A stretch of 12,956 nucleotides of DNA from IMG/VR virus record IMGVR_UViG_2778261122_000005, positions 1-12,956 of that record; one strand, written 5' to 3'. Numbering within the stretch: position 1 is the first letter of the stretch; every line of letters begins with the position of its first letter. The DNA is from a virus (lineage: Duplodnaviria > Heunggongvirae > Uroviricota > Caudoviricetes). Positions 525 to 9,160 of the stretch are shown in pieces. The notes under the pieces are model-generated. The model saw only the letters and a program-made list of their open reading frames with translations, ran no database searches and was not told the origin of the DNA. The translations under genes and the position numbers were made by a program.

Positions 525-680
525 TGCGGGTTATGCGGGTTAGCGGGTTATCTTCGCGTGCTAAGTATTTTTTATTCTTTAATATCAATGTGTTAAAAAA
601 CAACGTATTTAAATATCAGCCAGAATGTAACCCGCAAGACATTCAAAATAACCCGCAAACACCCCTCAAATAACCCGCAA
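525..680. repeat. Iteron cluster B (distal, crr-like): three contiguous TGCGGGTTA repeats, an AT-rich spacer, then three TAACCCGCA repeats at ~21-bp spacing
   Basis: Seen in sequence: (T/A)GCGGGTTA at 525..533, 534..542 and 542..550; AT-rich spacer ~551..627 preceded by a (TA)n run at ~507..517; TAACCCGCA at ~628, ~648 and ~671. Same 9-mer as cluster A, in mirrored arrangement. Confidence 0.6.
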
Positions 681-759
681 AAACATCCCTGAAAGTGGGT
701 GCCGGTAATACTGAAAATTTATTCCATTAAATGAGCATTGTCCTCTCTCATCCATTCCG

Positions 760-2421
760 TTACACACCATCAAACGCCGCAAGCCGCTCTTTGTGGCTGT
801 CGCTCATATCGAATGCAAATTCCTCATGCTCTGCCTGGAATGTGCCAAACGCCATCAGCGCCGCAACGCTCGGGTCTATCTTGTTGGATGATTTTTTCTT
901 GTTCGGCTTGATATTGGCGTTAGCGTCACTCTGCATCACAACATTACTCATTGACCAGGCCAGCACCGGATCACCACGATGCACAATCACCTTCCGGTTA
1001 ACAAAAACTTCGAACGATTTCGCCGCCGGACTGAAACGAAGGTATGTTTGCGGGAACGGCTCCACCTCAAATCCTGCCCCCTGTAGCTGCGTCCTCAGGT
1101 GCGTGGCGTTCCATGTATCGAAGCCCACCAGCCTGATATTGAAATTCTCTGCATCCGCCATGATGTCATCACGGATACGGTCATAATCAATGCAGTCACC
1201 CGGTGTTGTGCGTATCCAGCCCGCCTTTACCCACTGGCGATAGATGGCGCGGTTTTTATTGGCGGGGTTCTGTAGCTGAAATTCCGGCAGATAGTGACGG
1301 GAAACCAGCATAATCTTTTTACCGACCGGAAAGGCATAGCACACGCTGGAAATATCGCTGGTTGATGATAAGTCCAGCCCCGCGTAGCACTCCTGCCCGT
1401 ATAAATCCGCCTCCGCGAACGTTCCGGCGCACTCCGCCCATGCACCGTTACCCATCCACGGCGTAGCCCCCTGACACCAGATATTGAATCGCTTGGTGAG
1501 CATTTCCACCCACTGCGACGGAATACCCCGCGCTTTCTGGATGGTTGAGGCCAGTTTTTCACGATCGACGGAAACATCGATATTTGGATTCGCCTTTATC
1601 CACATCGCCGGATCGTCAACCTCGCTTTCATCATCCAGCTCGTAAATCAGAACGAACATGGATTCGTTCATCTCTTCACCATCCAGTATCTGACAGCAAT
1701 AGTCATAGTGTTGTTTACAGGCTGAAACAACGTTGCTCCCCGATGTGGTAATGGCAAATAACAGCCCTTCGGGACGTGCGCCCATCCCCATATCAAGTGC
1801 GGAATAAACCCCGTTGTCTGGGTGCAGGTGATATTCATCCACAATGGCAAGACTCGGGTTTGTCCCCTCAATGGTTGCCGCTTTTGCTGCCAGTGGCTTT
1901 AACAGGCTGTTGGTTTTCGGGTGTATCACCTTATGCGCCTGAATATTCACCCGCCTGCGTAACGGTCGGGATAAAAGGCACATCTGACGCGCATCATCAA
2001 AGACGATCCGCGCCTGGTCACGGCTCACCGCTGCGGTGTAGATATCCTGCTGACCGTTCTCCATAATCAGAAACCAGTTAGCCAGAATCGCGGCGGTCGT
2101 GGATTTCGCATTTTTGCGCGGCACTTCGATAAAGGCGCTCGTGTATTTGCGCCGTCCGGTGGCCTTAACCTTAAAGCCGAGGATGCACGCAAAGGCGAAC
2201 TGCTGCCACGGCTCCAGCTCAATGGGTCTGCCACGCATCGGTCCTTTTACGTGCGGACACACCCTGGAAAAGGCAATAAACCGCTCCACGACCTCCGGAT
2301 CGAACGTGTAAAGGGGGTTTTCAAGGTCAGAAAAATACCGTTTAACGGCCTGTTTCAGTCGTTTACAGGCCGTAATTTTGCCGTTTTTTACGCCTTCTGC
2401 GTACTCATGCCAGGTGGTCAA
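760..2421 (-). CDS. terL: Terminase large subunit
   Basis: 553-aa ORF whose sequence reads as a phage large terminase (ATPase plus nuclease). It lies immediately downstream of and overlapping the small terminase. Apparent TTG start at 2421, preceded by a GAGGAAGAGGA Shine-Dalgarno-like stretch inside the terS 3' end. Confidence 0.88.
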   Translation of the reverse strand: MTTWHEYAEGVKNGKITACKRLKQAVKRYFSDLENPLYTFDPEVVERFIAFSRVCPHVKGPMRGRPIELEPWQQFAFACILGFKVKATGRRKYTSAFIEVPRKNAKSTTAAILANWFLIMENGQQDIYTAAVSRDQARIVFDDARQMCLLSRPLRRRVNIQAHKVIHPKTNSLLKPLAAKAATIEGTNPSLAIVDEYHLHPDNGVYSALDMGMGARPEGLLFAITTSGSNVVSACKQHYDYCCQILDGEEMNESMFVLIYELDDESEVDDPAMWIKANPNIDVSVDREKLASTIQKARGIPSQWVEMLTKRFNIWCQGATPWMGNGAWAECAGTFAEADLYGQECYAGLDLSSTSDISSVCYAFPVGKKIMLVSRHYLPEFQLQNPANKNRAIYRQWVKAGWIRTTPGDCIDYDRIRDDIMADAENFNIRLVGFDTWNATHLRTQLQGAGFEVEPFPQTYLRFSPAAKSFEVFVNRKVIVHRGDPVLAWSMSNVVMQSDANANIKPNKKKSSNKIDPSVAALMAFGTFQAEHEEFAFDMSDSHKERLAAFDGV

Positions 2422-2761
2422 GCTCGTCCTCTTCCTCTGTTTCCGGTGGATTTCTGCGGCGGCTTACCGGGTCAAAACCCAGCAAAGAAGCCATTTTGAT
2501 CATTATTCTTTCTGCGTCAGCCTTTGCGCTCAGGGCGGGGTTTCTGCTCTCGCTGCCCTGACTGTTAACAATGCTGAAGCCGCGTGTCGCAAGGTCTTCG
2601 ACGGCTTTGCGGTATAGGGAGTAGTTAACGCAATACAGTTCCAGATTGCTCCAGTCGGCGGGGGTAAGGTCTTCCCGCCCGGAAAGCTGGCGCGATTTTT
2701 CCTTCCACTGCCTGACCGCGATTTCATCCAGGTAAGCGGGGGCTTTTGGTGGTCTTGCCAT
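2405..2761 (-). CDS. terS: Terminase small subunit (P27-type)
   Basis: Start set at the internal ATG (2761) giving MARPPKAPAYLDE..., the characteristic N-terminus of P27-family small terminases. The longer track ORF (to 2902) has an implausible N-terminal extension. Acidic C-terminal tail, stop overlapping terL start. Confidence 0.75.
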   Translation of the reverse strand: MARPPKAPAYLDEIAVRQWKEKSRQLSGREDLTPADWSNLELYCVNYSLYRKAVEDLATRGFSIVNSQGSESRNPALSAKADAERIMIKMASLLGFDPVSRRRNPPETEEEDELDHLA

Positions 2762-3049
2762 GTTCTTTTTTCGCCCAATTATTTTCAAAAAAATTCCCGT
2801 GCACAAAAATTTGAGGAGGCGGTCGGTGTCCGGCATGGACGGTTTCGTCCTGAAAACCTCCCCCACCCCCTCTGACGGCCTCACCAGCGATTGCGAAAAC
2901 ATTCCATGACCTCGCGGTCACGGTCGGTTAATCGCTTCGCTGTGGTGCGTTCTGTGCGCCCTGTCCTGTTGGCTTTGTGCTCTGTCTCCTGTGTCTTCCA
3001 TGTGTCACGCTGCCTTATCAGTCCACGTATCAGCCTGTTTTGCTCCTGT
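2762..3049. other. Putative cos (cohesive end) packaging site region
   Basis: A 288-bp non-coding gap sits exactly between the HNH endonuclease and terS, where HNH-associated cos phages place cos (established knowledge). It contains GACCTCGCGG (~2908..2917), identical to a 10-mer in lambda cosN as I recall it, plus GC-rich tracts (CCCCCACCCCC ~2858..2870). Confidence 0.4.
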
Positions 3050-8224: not shown

Positions 8225-8506
8225 TCAATTATCCCTTTTTTTCGGGTAGTTCCTGAACATCTCACCGCCAGGTTTCTGTAAGCCCATCCCGGTATGTGTG
8301 CGGTTTATGGCCTCTTTCAGTATTCCGAAATTATCCGGTATGACTGGTTGGCGCGCTGCCTTACGGATACATTCCGCGCGACGCTTTGCCACCTGTTCGC
8401 GCTCCTTGTCAGTGCTCACCAGCCACATAACATCAGCCCAACGTGCCGCTGCTCTCCGGTACAGCCCTTTAGCCTCCAGTTCTTCCGCTTTGCTGTCTTT
8501 AATCAT
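8225..8506 (-). CDS. PerC-family transcriptional regulator-like protein
   Basis: Start chosen at ATG 8506 with a GAGGT Shine-Dalgarno. The N-terminus MIKDSKAEELEAKGLYRRAAARWADVM resembles the conserved PerC/Pch N-terminal region as I recall it. Small and basic. Family assignment is from memory, not a search. Confidence 0.5.
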   Translation of the reverse strand: MIKDSKAEELEAKGLYRRAAARWADVMWLVSTDKEREQVAKRRAECIRKAARQPVIPDNFGILKEAINRTHTGMGLQKPGGEMFRNYPKKRDN

Positions 8507-8521
8507 GCTGTACCTCACTGC

Positions 8522-8947
8522 TTAAAACGGTATCCCGTCCCCGTACGGATCATCGTGCTGGCCTGTCTGTTGTTTTGCCCTGTTCAGTGCGTCAGTAGCC
8601 TGGCCCTGCTGGCCTTTTTTGCCGCCCGGTCGCGCCGTTCGCGCACTGATTACGCTGTCTGCGATGACCTGCCAGCCCTGCCGCGTTTCGCCGTTCTGGC
8701 CTGTCCACTGGCTTACCTGCATGTTACCCGCCACGCTCACCAGTTCGCCTTTCTGGTGTTTTGCCAGTGCGTCGGCCTGTCTGCCAAACGCCAGGACGGA
8801 TAACCACATCGTCGCCGTTCCGTCATCTGCCTGGCTGCATGGCAGGGGAACCGCCATACTCGCCATCGCCATTTGTGTTCCCTTGCTGGTGGTCTTTAAC
8901 TGCGGGTCAGCCACCAGCCGCCCGTAAGCCGCTATCTGTGCTGTCAT
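8522..8947 (-). CDS. ssb: Single-stranded DNA-binding protein
   Basis: 141-aa protein with an OB-fold-like N-terminus (GRLVADPQLKTTSKG..), a Gly/Gln-rich linker, and an acidic C-terminal tail ending ...DDPYGDGIPF, matching the SSB C-terminal D-D-(D)-I-P-F motif. Confidence 0.8.
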   Translation of the reverse strand: MTAQIAAYGRLVADPQLKTTSKGTQMAMASMAVPLPCSQADDGTATMWLSVLAFGRQADALAKHQKGELVSVAGNMQVSQWTGQNGETRQGWQVIADSVISARTARPGGKKGQQGQATDALNRAKQQTGQHDDPYGDGIPF

Positions 8948-9004
8948 GCTGTCTGTTCTCCGGTTTTAACGTTGATTGTTACGCTTGTTTACACCCTTAT
9001 GGTG

Positions 9005-9160
9005 AAATTCTGCGGGTTATAATCGCACTTTTGCGGGTTATAACTGCCGTTTTGCGGGTTATTTTGGGTATTTTGCGGGTTACGATTTTCCTGTCATTCC
9101 TTTAATAATCATATGGATACTGATTTATCCACAGAAATAACCCGCATAACCCGCAAAATT
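9005..9160. repeat. Iteron cluster A, putative origin of replication: four 21-bp-phased TTGCGGGTTA repeats, an AT-rich spacer, and two contiguous inverted copies
   Basis: Seen in sequence: TGCGGGTTA at ~9011, ~9032, ~9053 and ~9074 (exact 21-bp periodicity); AT-rich ~9085..9135; TAACCCGCA x2 at ~9138..9155. Lies immediately 3' of the primase gene, the position of the origin in P4 and PICIs. Coordinates here may be off by 1. Confidence 0.6.

What the first reader, a model, noticed from the sequence alone, without database searches (positions are those of the whole stretch)
525..9160. Two mirrored iteron clusters about 8.4 kb apart, resembling a bipartite ori plus crr replicon
The same 9-mer, TGCGGGTTA, forms two clusters, each with phased copies, an AT-rich spacer and inverted copies. 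Cluster A (~9005..9160) has four copies at exact 21-bp spacing (two helical turns) and lies just 3' of the primase. Cluster B (~525..680) has the same architecture in reverse orientation at the far end of the island, beyond terL. This mirrors phage P4, where the alpha primase binds iterons at both ori and a distant crr site. Cluster B could instead be a looping, partition or packaging-boundary site.
Basis: partly seen in the sequence, partly recalled or inferred. Interest (0 to 1): 0.7.

Follow-up and report, generated by a model that had tools for sequence, protein, structure and literature searches.

The report
Split replication origin in phage satellite
This E. coli phage-parasite island carries the two mirror-image halves of its replication origin 8.4 kb apart instead of side by side, and relatives indicate both halves are still in use, much like the two-site origin of satellite phage P4 but with an unrelated replication protein.

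Summary
TGCGGGTTA occurs 11 times (0.17 expected), all in two clusters. Each cluster has tandem copies, an AT-rich spacer and inverted copies phased at 21-22 bp.

The window is a capsid-forming PICI satellite. Cluster A (9011-9155) is the canonical PICI origin just 3' of the DUF927 Rep. That Rep is a SaPI-Rep-like helicase-initiator with no detectable primase domain.

Cluster B (525-679) is the outer half of an origin that is normally contiguous. In the prototype EcCIEDL933 and across seven iteron specificities, B-type and A-type modules abut as one ~300-bp mirror-symmetric unit. Here 8.4 kb of genes (SSB to terL) lies between them.

Evidence that the distal half still works:
- Iteron cores are conserved: 2/48 variable columns against 57/108 elsewhere (p = 7e-10).
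- The spacer stays at 77 bp and 69-77% AT.
- The two spacers are the least stable duplex stretches in the island.
- All 11 complete-genome islands with only the A half carry a cognate B.
- A second specificity (TTGGTTCA) shows the same split in at least 8 contigs, with matching iterons in both halves.

The P4 ori/crr analogy holds for geometry only, not for family membership. Intact TGCGGGTTA end clusters on islands with other Reps remain unexplained. Nothing was tested experimentally.

The parts
159..218 (.). attL core: left boundary of the island at the thiM/rcnR integration site
   Evidence: A 60-bp direct repeat lies at both island ends in L001 (4159 and 19381). The same sequence starts at window 159.
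219..488 (.). Non-coding left arm between the att core and the leader. It is shared, in diverged form, by islands at six or more integration sites. It contains a hairpin at 358-381 and two Chi octamers.
   Evidence: Alignments (61% variable columns over 389-488). Chi at 289 and 390. No tRNA or Rfam match.
489..524 (-). Conserved 'leader' (CCTGAATGCAATTTTTCGTATATATATACAAAACAG) abutting the tandem iterons of B. In contiguous origins the same element precedes the start codon of the next gene.
   Evidence: 4 of 36 columns are variable. Leader-like sequence is found across iteron types, and a 25-bp stretch is identical in GGGACRAC-type loci. No sigma-70 consensus was found.
525..550 (+). Module B, tandem iterons (TGCGGGTTA, TGCGGGTTA, GCGGGTTA)
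551..627 (.). Module B spacer: conserved box TCTTCGCGTGCTAAG (551-565), then an AT-rich stretch with an IHF-consensus match at 583-595. It is the least stable 50-bp duplex in the window (566-616).
   Evidence: 73% AT. Stability rank 1, z = 4.2. Length is 77 bp in most distal variants (76-78 in three loci), AT 69-77%. IHF pattern.
628..679 (-). Module B, three phased iterons (starts 628, 649, 671; spacing 21 and 22 bp)
   Evidence: Iteron cores show 2 of 48 variable columns across 23 variants.
760..8947 (-). Genes lying between the two origin halves: terL, terS, HNH, head-tail connectors, portal, protease, major capsid protein, PerC, SSB
   Evidence: Pfam scan. RefSeq annotation of near-identical islands.
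9011..9082 (+). Module A, four phased iterons at exact 21-bp spacing
9083..9137 (.). Module A AT-rich spacer with a perfect DnaA-box consensus TTATCCACA at 9125-9133
   Evidence: 69% AT. Stability rank 3 in the window and rank 2 within the island, z = 3.1. The DnaA-box consensus sits at the same position in 13 of 14 islands of this specificity.
9138..9155 (-). Module A, tandem iteron pair next to the rep stop codon
9184..11310 (-). Rep: 708-aa DUF927 helicase-initiator. Residues 594-708 (nt 9184-9531) are the part that tracks iteron specificity.
   Evidence: DUF927, E = 1e-46. PDB 8tch_A SaPIbov1 Rep, E = 1e-14. C-terminal identity is 0.86-0.92 within iteron types and 0.32-0.59 between types. 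The C-terminal model's best fold match is 8tch_A.

Best explanation
The two clusters are the two halves of one PICI-type replication origin that has been pulled apart.

Shown by comparison: in most relatives a rep-proximal module (A type) and an outer module (B type) abut as a ~300-bp mirror-symmetric unit directly after the rep gene. The A type reads tandem pair, AT-rich stretch, phased iterons. The B type reads phased iterons, AT-rich stretch, tandem triple, leader. In this island the whole SSB-to-terL block (8.4 kb) lies between them. Module A therefore stays beside rep, and module B ends up about 305 bp from the island's left attachment site.

Inferred mechanism: after the island excises and circularises, the island's Rep binds the TGCGGGTTA iterons of both modules through its C-terminal domain. 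Rep is a self-loading SaPI-Rep-like hexameric helicase. Each module offers iterons in opposite orientation on either side of an easily melted AT-rich stretch, which is the layout at which SaPI Reps melt DNA and load. The distal module acts in cis on replication. It is either a second loading site or a partner reached by Rep-mediated DNA looping, as with ori and crr of P4.

Inferred constraint: on a circle, two separated modules that each launched only one fork in mirror-image directions would leave one arc unreplicated. So either each module fires in both directions, or only one fires and the other assists.

The modules are also not equivalent. A carries a DnaA-box consensus. B carries an IHF-like site and the conserved leader.
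For: 1. Homology. Cluster B aligns with the outer half of the contiguous origin of EcCIEDL933 (L003) and L006, including non-iteron sequence. The composite pattern --+++++--+++ recurs in seven iteron specificities.

2. Cluster A matches the published PICI origin. That origin lies immediately 3' of rep and consists of two iteron sets flanking an AT-rich region. It was shown functional for EcCICFT073 (PMC6092414). [quoted passage not shown]

3. Rep is SaPI-Rep-like. Its C-terminal ~115 residues co-vary with iteron type. Their predicted fold best matches the SaPIbov1 Rep, then a winged-helix oriT binder.

4. Selection on the distal module. Iteron cores show 2/48 variable columns against 57/108 other columns in 23 unique variants, p = 6.9e-10. 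The spacer is held at 77 bp and 69-77% AT.

5. The B and A spacers are the two least stable 50-bp duplex stretches inside the island.

6. Co-occurrence. All 11 complete-genome islands with an A-only proximal origin carry a cognate distal B, 8.0-10.4 kb away. They sit at six or more integration sites, and the intervening or adjacent content differs in at least five ways. Five of these were sampled without knowing whether they had B. DUF927 islands without an end B have full composite origins.

7. Covariation. In the TTGGTTCA specificity at least 8 contigs carry paired mirrored half-modules 5-12 kb apart with the same iteron in both. Their junctions and intervening cargo differ.
Against: - There is no experimental evidence of binding, melting or initiation at either cluster.
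- Each module alone formally satisfies the definition of a complete SaPI-type origin, so it is not explained why both would be needed.
- The co-occurrence and selection tests are not corrected for shared ancestry. One translocation creates 'A-only' and 'distal B' at the same time.
- Three of six islands found through the B sequence alone carry an intact TGCGGGTTA end cluster beside a Rep of another specificity with its own complete origin (L004, L087, L088). A B module can therefore persist where the resident Rep should not read it.
- In several half-module loci (for example L079 and L111) no partner was seen within the fetched flank.
- The fold match of the C-terminal domain is weak (E = 0.019, pLDDT 73.6).
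Confidence: 0.6

Rival explanations
1. Cluster B binds Rep but is a regulatory site rather than part of the origin. It could be an operator for the conserved leader or a copy-number brake (titration or handcuffing). In contiguous origins the leader precedes the next gene. In the excised circle of this island it would point across attP to the int gene, about 365 bp away.
For: The leader is as conserved as the iterons (4/36 variable columns). It always sits between the tandem iterons and the next start codon in contiguous origins and in L131. In L001 the int start codon is 34 bp from the att core, so int's upstream region in the circle is this arm. A-only variants L023 and L025 keep a leader-like sequence but no B iterons next to A.
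Against: No sigma-70-like promoter was found at the leader. An operator would not need a fixed 77-bp AT-rich spacer that is the least stable duplex in the window, nor the full origin-like layout. The module is homologous to half of an origin.
Confidence: 0.2
2. Cluster B is a functionless relic left when cargo was inserted into, or recombined across, a composite origin. Module A alone is the working origin.
For: A alone satisfies the published definition of a PICI/SaPI origin. Orphan B clusters on islands with other Reps show that the module can be carried passively. PICIs are highly mosaic.
Against: Substitutions avoid the iteron cores (p = 6.9e-10), and the spacer length and AT content are held. 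No complete-genome A-only island lacking B was found (0 of 11), even though left ends reassort. The same split with cognate iterons recurs in a second specificity.
Confidence: 0.08
3. The end cluster works in trans between satellites. It could be a decoy that titrates the Rep of a competing TGCGGGTTA-type island. Alternatively it could be a hitch-hiking origin that lets its carrier be replicated by another island's Rep.
For: Intact TGCGGGTTA end clusters sit on islands with GGGACRAC, GAGACAA and GTAGACA origins. Among these three copies 0/48 iteron columns vary against 10/108 others, p = 0.03. Some E. coli genomes hold several such islands, with up to 5-6 places per genome.
Against: The sample is only three orphans, and they may be recent recombinants of a shared left-end module. 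This idea does not explain why A-only islands always keep a cognate B in cis.
Confidence: 0.06
4. Cluster B is a packaging boundary or a partition (centromere-like) site.
For: It lies next to terL at the island end.
Against: The same module occurs at the ends of islands with no terminase genes nearby (L005, L089, L090), and next to PerC in L131. No ParA/ParB-like genes were found. In HK97-like HNH-terS-terL modules the cos site is expected upstream of terS (own knowledge), not downstream of terL.
Confidence: 0.03

Closest known systems
Origin of the prototype capsid-forming PICI EcCIEDL933 (L003) and other E. coli PICIs (Fillol-Salom 2018, PMC6092414)
   Same: Same iteron (TGCGGGTTA), same DUF927 Rep family and same module architecture. 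The packaging module is homologous (terL DNA 93% identical). The origin begins right after rep.
   Different: In EcCIEDL933 the two modules are contiguous (about 310 bp, 11 copies) and a small extra gene follows the leader. Here they are 8.4 kb apart, with SSB-to-terL between them and module B at the island end. A split state has not, to my knowledge, been described for PICIs; four of the five literature searches run bore on this and found none.
SaPI Rep-ori system (SaPIbov1, SaPI1, SaPI5; PMC9371898)
   Same: A self-loading hexameric helicase-initiator homologous to this Rep (8tch_A, E = 1e-14). The C-terminal domain reads the iterons. Iterons lie in opposite orientation on both sides of an AT-rich centre, immediately downstream of rep.
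   Different: SaPI origins are described as a single compact site with 5-6 nt iterons. Here the iteron is 8-9 nt, the full origin is a double (mirror-duplicated) unit, and the halves can be kilobases apart. The N-terminal 170 residues here match no known domain.
Satellite phage P4 ori / crr / alpha protein (own knowledge: Flensburg and Calendar 1987; Ziegelin et al. 1993, 1995)
   Same: A phage satellite of E. coli with two clusters of the same iteron several kb apart. In P4 both are bound by the element's own initiator, and the distal one acts in cis.
   Different: P4 alpha is a primase-helicase of another family. P4 iterons are TGTTCACC. crr is a pair of direct repeats, not a mirror image of ori. 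Sister islands do use a primase-family Rep with CTGTTCACC iterons (L092), but there the iterons form one compact site beside the gene.
Iteron plasmids with distant origin elements, e.g. R6K gamma/alpha/beta origins activated by pi-mediated looping (own knowledge)
   Same: One initiator binds iterons at sites kilobases apart, and the sites cooperate through DNA looping.
   Different: The initiators are unrelated (RepA/pi family, with no helicase). The R6K sites are not mirror-image halves of a unit that is compact in relatives.

Membership tests
PICI/SaPI-type Rep-iteron replicon | Initiator homologous to SaPI Rep (AAA+ helicase core) | tested here: met
   DUF927, E = 1.3e-46. phmmer hit to 8tch_A SaPIbov1 Rep, E = 1.2e-14 over residues 210-599, and to Cch 5dgk_A. 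Sub-threshold NCBIfam Cch1 match.
PICI/SaPI-type Rep-iteron replicon | C-terminal winged-helix domain that reads the iterons | tested here: inconclusive
   Residues 594-708 co-vary with iteron type. The AlphaFold model (pLDDT 73.6) has helix-helix-hairpin topology. Its best fold hits are 8tch_A (E = 0.019, prob 1.0) and the wHTH protein 5vfx. Binding was not tested.
PICI/SaPI-type Rep-iteron replicon | Origin immediately 3' of rep | tested here: met
   Module A starts 29 bp after the rep stop codon. This feature is not met by module B, which is 8.4 kb away.
PICI/SaPI-type Rep-iteron replicon | At least two iterons on each side of an AT-rich region, in opposite orientation | tested here: met
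   A has 4 + 2 copies and B has 3 + 3 copies. The spacers are 69% and 73% AT.
PICI/SaPI-type Rep-iteron replicon | Rep plus ori drives autonomous replication | not testable with these tools
   Needs a plasmid maintenance or induction assay.
Capsid-forming PICI (cf-PICI) | Island-encoded HK97-type capsid and packaging module (terS, terL, HNH, portal, protease, capsid, connectors) without tail genes | tested here: met
   Pfam hits. RefSeq annotation of near-identical islands shows no tail genes. terL is 93% identical in DNA to EcCIEDL933.
Capsid-forming PICI (cf-PICI) | Integrase with a specific att site, and a size of about 15 kb | tested here: met
   60-bp att repeats and an integrase at the right end in L001, which is at the same site. 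The island there is about 15.3 kb. The window itself ends before int.
Capsid-forming PICI (cf-PICI) | Induced by, and using tails of, a helper phage | not testable with these tools
   -
P4-type replicon (alpha, ori, crr) | Alpha-type primase-helicase (zinc ribbon/Toprim primase plus D5-type helicase) | tested here: not met
   No primase or D5 domain at E <= 10 in the N-terminal 170 residues, and only DUF927 in the whole protein. A relative (L131) does carry Zn_Ribbon_Prim + Toprim_3 fused to DUF927.
P4-type replicon (alpha, ori, crr) | Type I iteron TGTTCACC | tested here: not met
   The iteron here is TGCGGGTTA. CTGTTCACC iterons occur in sister island L092.
P4-type replicon (alpha, ori, crr) | Two clusters of the same iteron kilobases apart | tested here: met
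   The clusters are 8.4 kb apart. In relatives the separation is 5-12 kb.
P4-type replicon (alpha, ori, crr) | Distal site required in cis for replication | not testable with these tools
   Only indirect support: selection on the distal iterons and A-only/B co-occurrence in 11 of 11 islands.

The most novel reading that the evidence does not exclude
The origin of this satellite family is built from two separable, non-equivalent modules that still cooperate when 5-12 kb apart, presumably because Rep assemblies on the two sites pair through a DNA loop. The mirror centre of the origin is a recurrent place where whole gene blocks are inserted: packaging genes here, P22-type ejection genes in L131. 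Intact modules of a foreign specificity at island ends would then let one satellite's Rep act on another satellite, either replicating it or restraining it.
Probability: 0.2. Interest if true: 0.8.

Novelty: new variant of a known kind. Interest (0 to 1): 0.6.

Why it matters
PICI and SaPI origins are described as one compact site right after rep. How two self-loading Rep hexamers are placed on DNA is still an open question (PMC9371898).

Natural variants in which the two origin halves sit 5-12 kb apart are a ready-made experiment. Are both halves loading sites? Do they need to touch? Which host factor sites matter (the DnaA box in one half, the IHF-like site in the other)?

The finding also bears on how satellites gain cargo, because gene blocks sit inside the origin. 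The orphan clusters raise the question of whether co-resident satellites can interfere with each other's replication.

On the practical side, annotating only the rep-proximal cluster as 'the ori' would miss a cis element when building cf-PICI-based delivery vectors.

Tried and rejected
- tRNA scan and Rfam scan of the window found nothing. The T-arm-like sequence at 470-490 is not a tRNA.
- Consensus promoter and terminator scans found nothing at the leader or in either cluster beyond chance.
- I first concluded that the split state was confined to the window's own iteron lineage. That was a sampling artefact, overturned by the TTGGTTCA scan.
- 'A-only islands without B' in IMG/VR contigs (L020-L025 and others) turned out to be contigs clipped at the last gene, or flanks too short for the L005-type cargo. 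They are uninformative.
- My first pooled selection test wrongly mixed A modules read on the other strand. It was discarded and redone with a leader anchor.
- I first took the island edge to be at 389, from BLAST hit starts. The att repeat puts it at 159-218.
- A literature search for P4 crr details returned nothing usable, so P4 facts rest on my own knowledge.
- A PADLOC scan of the L131 cargo found no known defence system.
- The packaging-boundary and partition readings were rejected for lack of context support.

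
Full report
**1. The observation**

TGCGGGTTA occurs 11 times in 12,956 bp against 0.17 expected, and 0 of 200 shuffles reach 11. The 8-mer core GCGGGTTA occurs 12 times. Every exact copy lies in one of two clusters.

- Cluster A has four copies at 9011, 9032, 9053 and 9074 (+), spaced exactly 21 bp. A 55-bp spacer with 69% AT follows, then a tandem pair at 9138 and 9147 (-).
- Cluster B has a tandem triple at 525, 534 and 543 (+). A 77-bp spacer with 73% AT follows, then three copies at 628, 649 and 671 (-), spaced 21 and 22 bp.
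- The window as a whole is 49% AT.

**2. Context**

The minus strand encodes terL, terS, an HNH nuclease, connectors, portal, protease, major capsid protein, PerC, SSB, a 708-aa DUF927 protein and a DUF4222 protein. Near-identical islands in complete E. coli genomes are annotated the same way. They carry a tyrosine integrase at the right end and no tail genes. terL is 93% identical in DNA to that of EcCIEDL933, the prototype capsid-forming PICI.

The island's left att core is a 60-bp direct repeat that maps to window 159-218. Cluster B is therefore about 305 bp inside the island's left end, just downstream of the terL stop codon. Cluster A lies between the rep stop codon (9184) and the SSB start codon (8947).

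**3. The replication protein**

- It matches DUF927 (E = 1e-46) and no primase family. The first 170 residues match nothing even at E <= 10.
- Its closest solved relatives are the SaPIbov1 Rep (8tch_A, E = 1e-14) and the SCCmec helicase Cch.
- Published work describes SaPI Reps as self-loading hexameric helicase-initiators. Their C-terminal winged helix reads iterons placed in opposite orientation on either side of an AT-rich centre, immediately downstream of rep (PMC9371898).
- In an alignment of 19 Reps of six iteron types, residues 594-708 separate the types best. Identity is 0.86-0.92 within a type and 0.32-0.59 between types.
- A model of residues 551-708 (pLDDT 73.6) ends in a helix-helix-hairpin. 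Its best fold match is the SaPIbov1 Rep itself, followed by a winged-helix oriT-binding protein. The scores are weak (E = 0.019).

The 'primase' label is therefore unsupported. A SaPI-type initiator is well supported.

**4. What cluster A is**

It is the canonical PICI origin. E. coli PICI origins lie immediately 3' of rep and always show two iteron sets flanking an AT-rich region. The rep-ori segment of EcCICFT073 drives plasmid replication (PMC6092414).

**5. What cluster B is**

In EcCIEDL933 (L003) and in L006 the B-type and A-type clusters are contiguous. They form one ~310-bp unit beside rep with the same iteron, in the same order and orientation as in the window. The homology includes non-iteron sequence: the leader TTTTTCGTATATATATACAAAACA and the box ATCTTCGCGTGCTAA.

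I examined 80 loci encoding Rep relatives at 58-98% identity. The usual state is this composite, in rep orientation: stop codon, tandem inverted pair, AT-rich stretch, 4-5 phased copies, 2 phased inverted copies, AT-rich stretch, tandem triple, leader, next gene. It appears in seven iteron specificities.

Cluster B is therefore the outer half of a mirror-symmetric double origin. In this island the SSB-to-terL block lies between the halves.

**6. Is the distal half still in use?**

(a) Selection on the iterons. Among 23 unique distal B modules, 2 of 48 iteron-core columns vary against 57 of 108 other columns (Fisher p = 6.9e-10). The leader is also conserved, while the flanks are 61-79% variable.

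(b) Spacer geometry and composition. The spacer is 77 bp in most distal variants (76-78 in L009, L010 and L053), the same as in the contiguous form. It stays at 69-77% AT even though about half its columns vary.

(c) Duplex stability. By nearest-neighbour stability the B spacer is the least stable 50-bp stretch of the window (z = 4.2). The A spacer ranks third (z = 3.1). The stretch ranked second lies in the chromosomal flank.

(d) Co-occurrence. Eleven complete-genome islands have only the A half beside rep: the window, L001, L002, L005, L089, L090 and L097-L101.
- All eleven carry a cognate B with five or six intact copies, 8.0-10.4 kb away.
- They sit at six or more integration sites, with at least five different contexts next to B.
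- L097-L101 were chosen only because their B status was unknown.
- DUF927 islands without an end B have full composite origins (L003/L093, L006, L096).

(e) Covariation. A scan for the tandem pair of the TTGGTTCA specificity found about 20 composites. It also found at least 8 contigs with paired, mirrored half-modules 5-12 kb apart, with the same iteron in both.
- The junctions differ. L113 has rep-A-SSB, as here, but with a different untranslated region.
- In L131, 7.4 kb of P22-type ejection protein genes lies between the halves. The distal half keeps its leader in front of PerC, not at the island end.
- The split has therefore arisen more than once, and each time the distal half keeps the resident Rep's iteron.

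**7. Mechanism**

What is shown: homology, architecture, selection, co-occurrence and covariation.

What is inferred: Rep binds both modules through its C-terminal domain, and the distal module acts in cis on replication of the excised circle.

Whether both modules fire, or one assists the other through a loop as in P4 ori/crr, cannot be decided here. One constraint follows from topology. On a circle, two separated modules that each launched a single fork in mirror-image directions would leave one arc unreplicated. So either each module fires bidirectionally, or only one is the initiation site.

The modules are also not equivalent.
- Module A carries a DnaA-box consensus 3-4 bp from its tandem pair. 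It is TTATCCACA here and fits TTWTNCACA in 13 of 14 islands, across two unrelated spacer sequences.
- Module B has an IHF-consensus match with an invariant core, a conserved box beside its tandem iterons, and the leader.

**8. What does not fit**

Of six islands found through the B sequence alone, three have a Rep of another specificity with its own complete origin. L004 uses GGGACRAC, L087 uses GAGACAA, and L088 has a primase-family Rep with GTAGACA iterons. All three still carry six intact TGCGGGTTA copies at the island end.

These orphans differ from each other by up to 7%, yet none of their differences falls in an iteron: 0/48 against 10/108 columns, p = 0.03. They may be recent recombinants of a shared left-end module. 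Alternatively the module may have a role that does not depend on the resident Rep. I could not decide between these.

Three further limits apply. The tests in section 6 are not corrected for shared ancestry. Some half-module loci showed no partner within the fetched flank (L079, L111). Nothing was tested experimentally.

**9. Comparison with known systems**

It works like a PICI/SaPI Rep-iteron origin and is a member of that kind, with the helicase core, origin position and iteron layout all met.

It resembles P4 ori/crr in geometry only. The alpha-type primase-helicase and the TGTTCACC iteron were tested and are not present. Sister cf-PICIs such as L092 do use a primase-family Rep with CTGTTCACC iterons, but as one compact site.

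I found no description of a split PICI origin in the searchable literature.

**10. Verdict**

It is a new variant of a known kind. Interest is moderate to high, because natural split origins make the loading geometry of self-loading Rep helicases directly testable.

Noticed in passing
whole window (e.g. 289, 390, 1125, 4354, 5588, 5840, 6843, 8885, 8911, 10296, 10358, 11404, 12167, 12354, 12788, 12865): There are sixteen Chi octamers (GCTGGTGG) in 12,956 bp against 0.49 expected from shuffles. That is also several-fold above the E. coli average of about one per 4.5 kb (own knowledge). This may protect the linear or rolling-circle satellite DNA from RecBCD.
   Followed up: partly
L004 15137-15282; L087 14137-14282; L088 14136-14281: Intact TGCGGGTTA end clusters (six copies) occur on islands whose own Rep and origin use other iterons (GGGACRAC, GAGACAA, GTAGACA). 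One of them has a different Rep family. No iteron substitutions are seen among the three, although they diverge by up to 7%.
   Followed up: partly
L092 20836-21052 (NZ_CP024240.1): A sister cf-PICI at the same thiM/rcnR site uses a 'DNA primase family protein' Rep. Its origin iteron is CTGTTCACC, which matches the P4 type I iteron (own knowledge). P4-alpha-like replicons therefore circulate in the same satellite family.
   Followed up: no
L002 3115-3858 and 19363-20391; L097; L098: These cf-PICIs are integrated inside the large terminase gene of an HK97-like prophage and split it in two.
   Followed up: no
L131 5140-9798: Genes for P22-type DNA ejection proteins (DUF2824, gp7, injectosome translocase, and a 701-aa ORF) sit between the two origin halves of a DUF927 satellite. 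Its Rep carries a fused zinc-ribbon/Toprim primase. No PADLOC defence match was found.
   Followed up: partly
window 9125-9133 and 583-595: A perfect DnaA-box consensus lies in the spacer of module A and is conserved in position in 13 of 14 islands. An IHF-consensus match with an invariant TATCAAT core lies in the spacer of module B.
   Followed up: partly
window 489-524; L026, L044, L056, L082, L077 downstream of the tandem triple: A conserved 'leader' (GTTTTGTATATATATACGAAAAATTGAG-like) follows the outer tandem iterons in every iteron specificity and precedes the next gene's start codon. It has no sigma-70 consensus, and its role is unknown.
   Followed up: partly
L003 13280-13680: The left end of EcCIEDL933, downstream of terL, carries a different repeat family (GAAArTATCAnCnrGTTACCGCGCC, five or six copies) where the window has cluster B.
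   Followed up: no
window 358-381; L001 ~4312-4335; L004 ~14970-14993; inverted in L003 ~13030-13055: A conserved hairpin (CCGTTATGGGrATCCCCATATCGG) lies in the left arm of islands that use different integration sites.
   Followed up: no
L023 and L025, 170-290 nt after the rep stop: These variants have module A followed directly by a leader-like sequence and a gene start, with the B iterons precisely missing. The contigs end at a gene stop, so a distal B could not be checked.
   Followed up: partly
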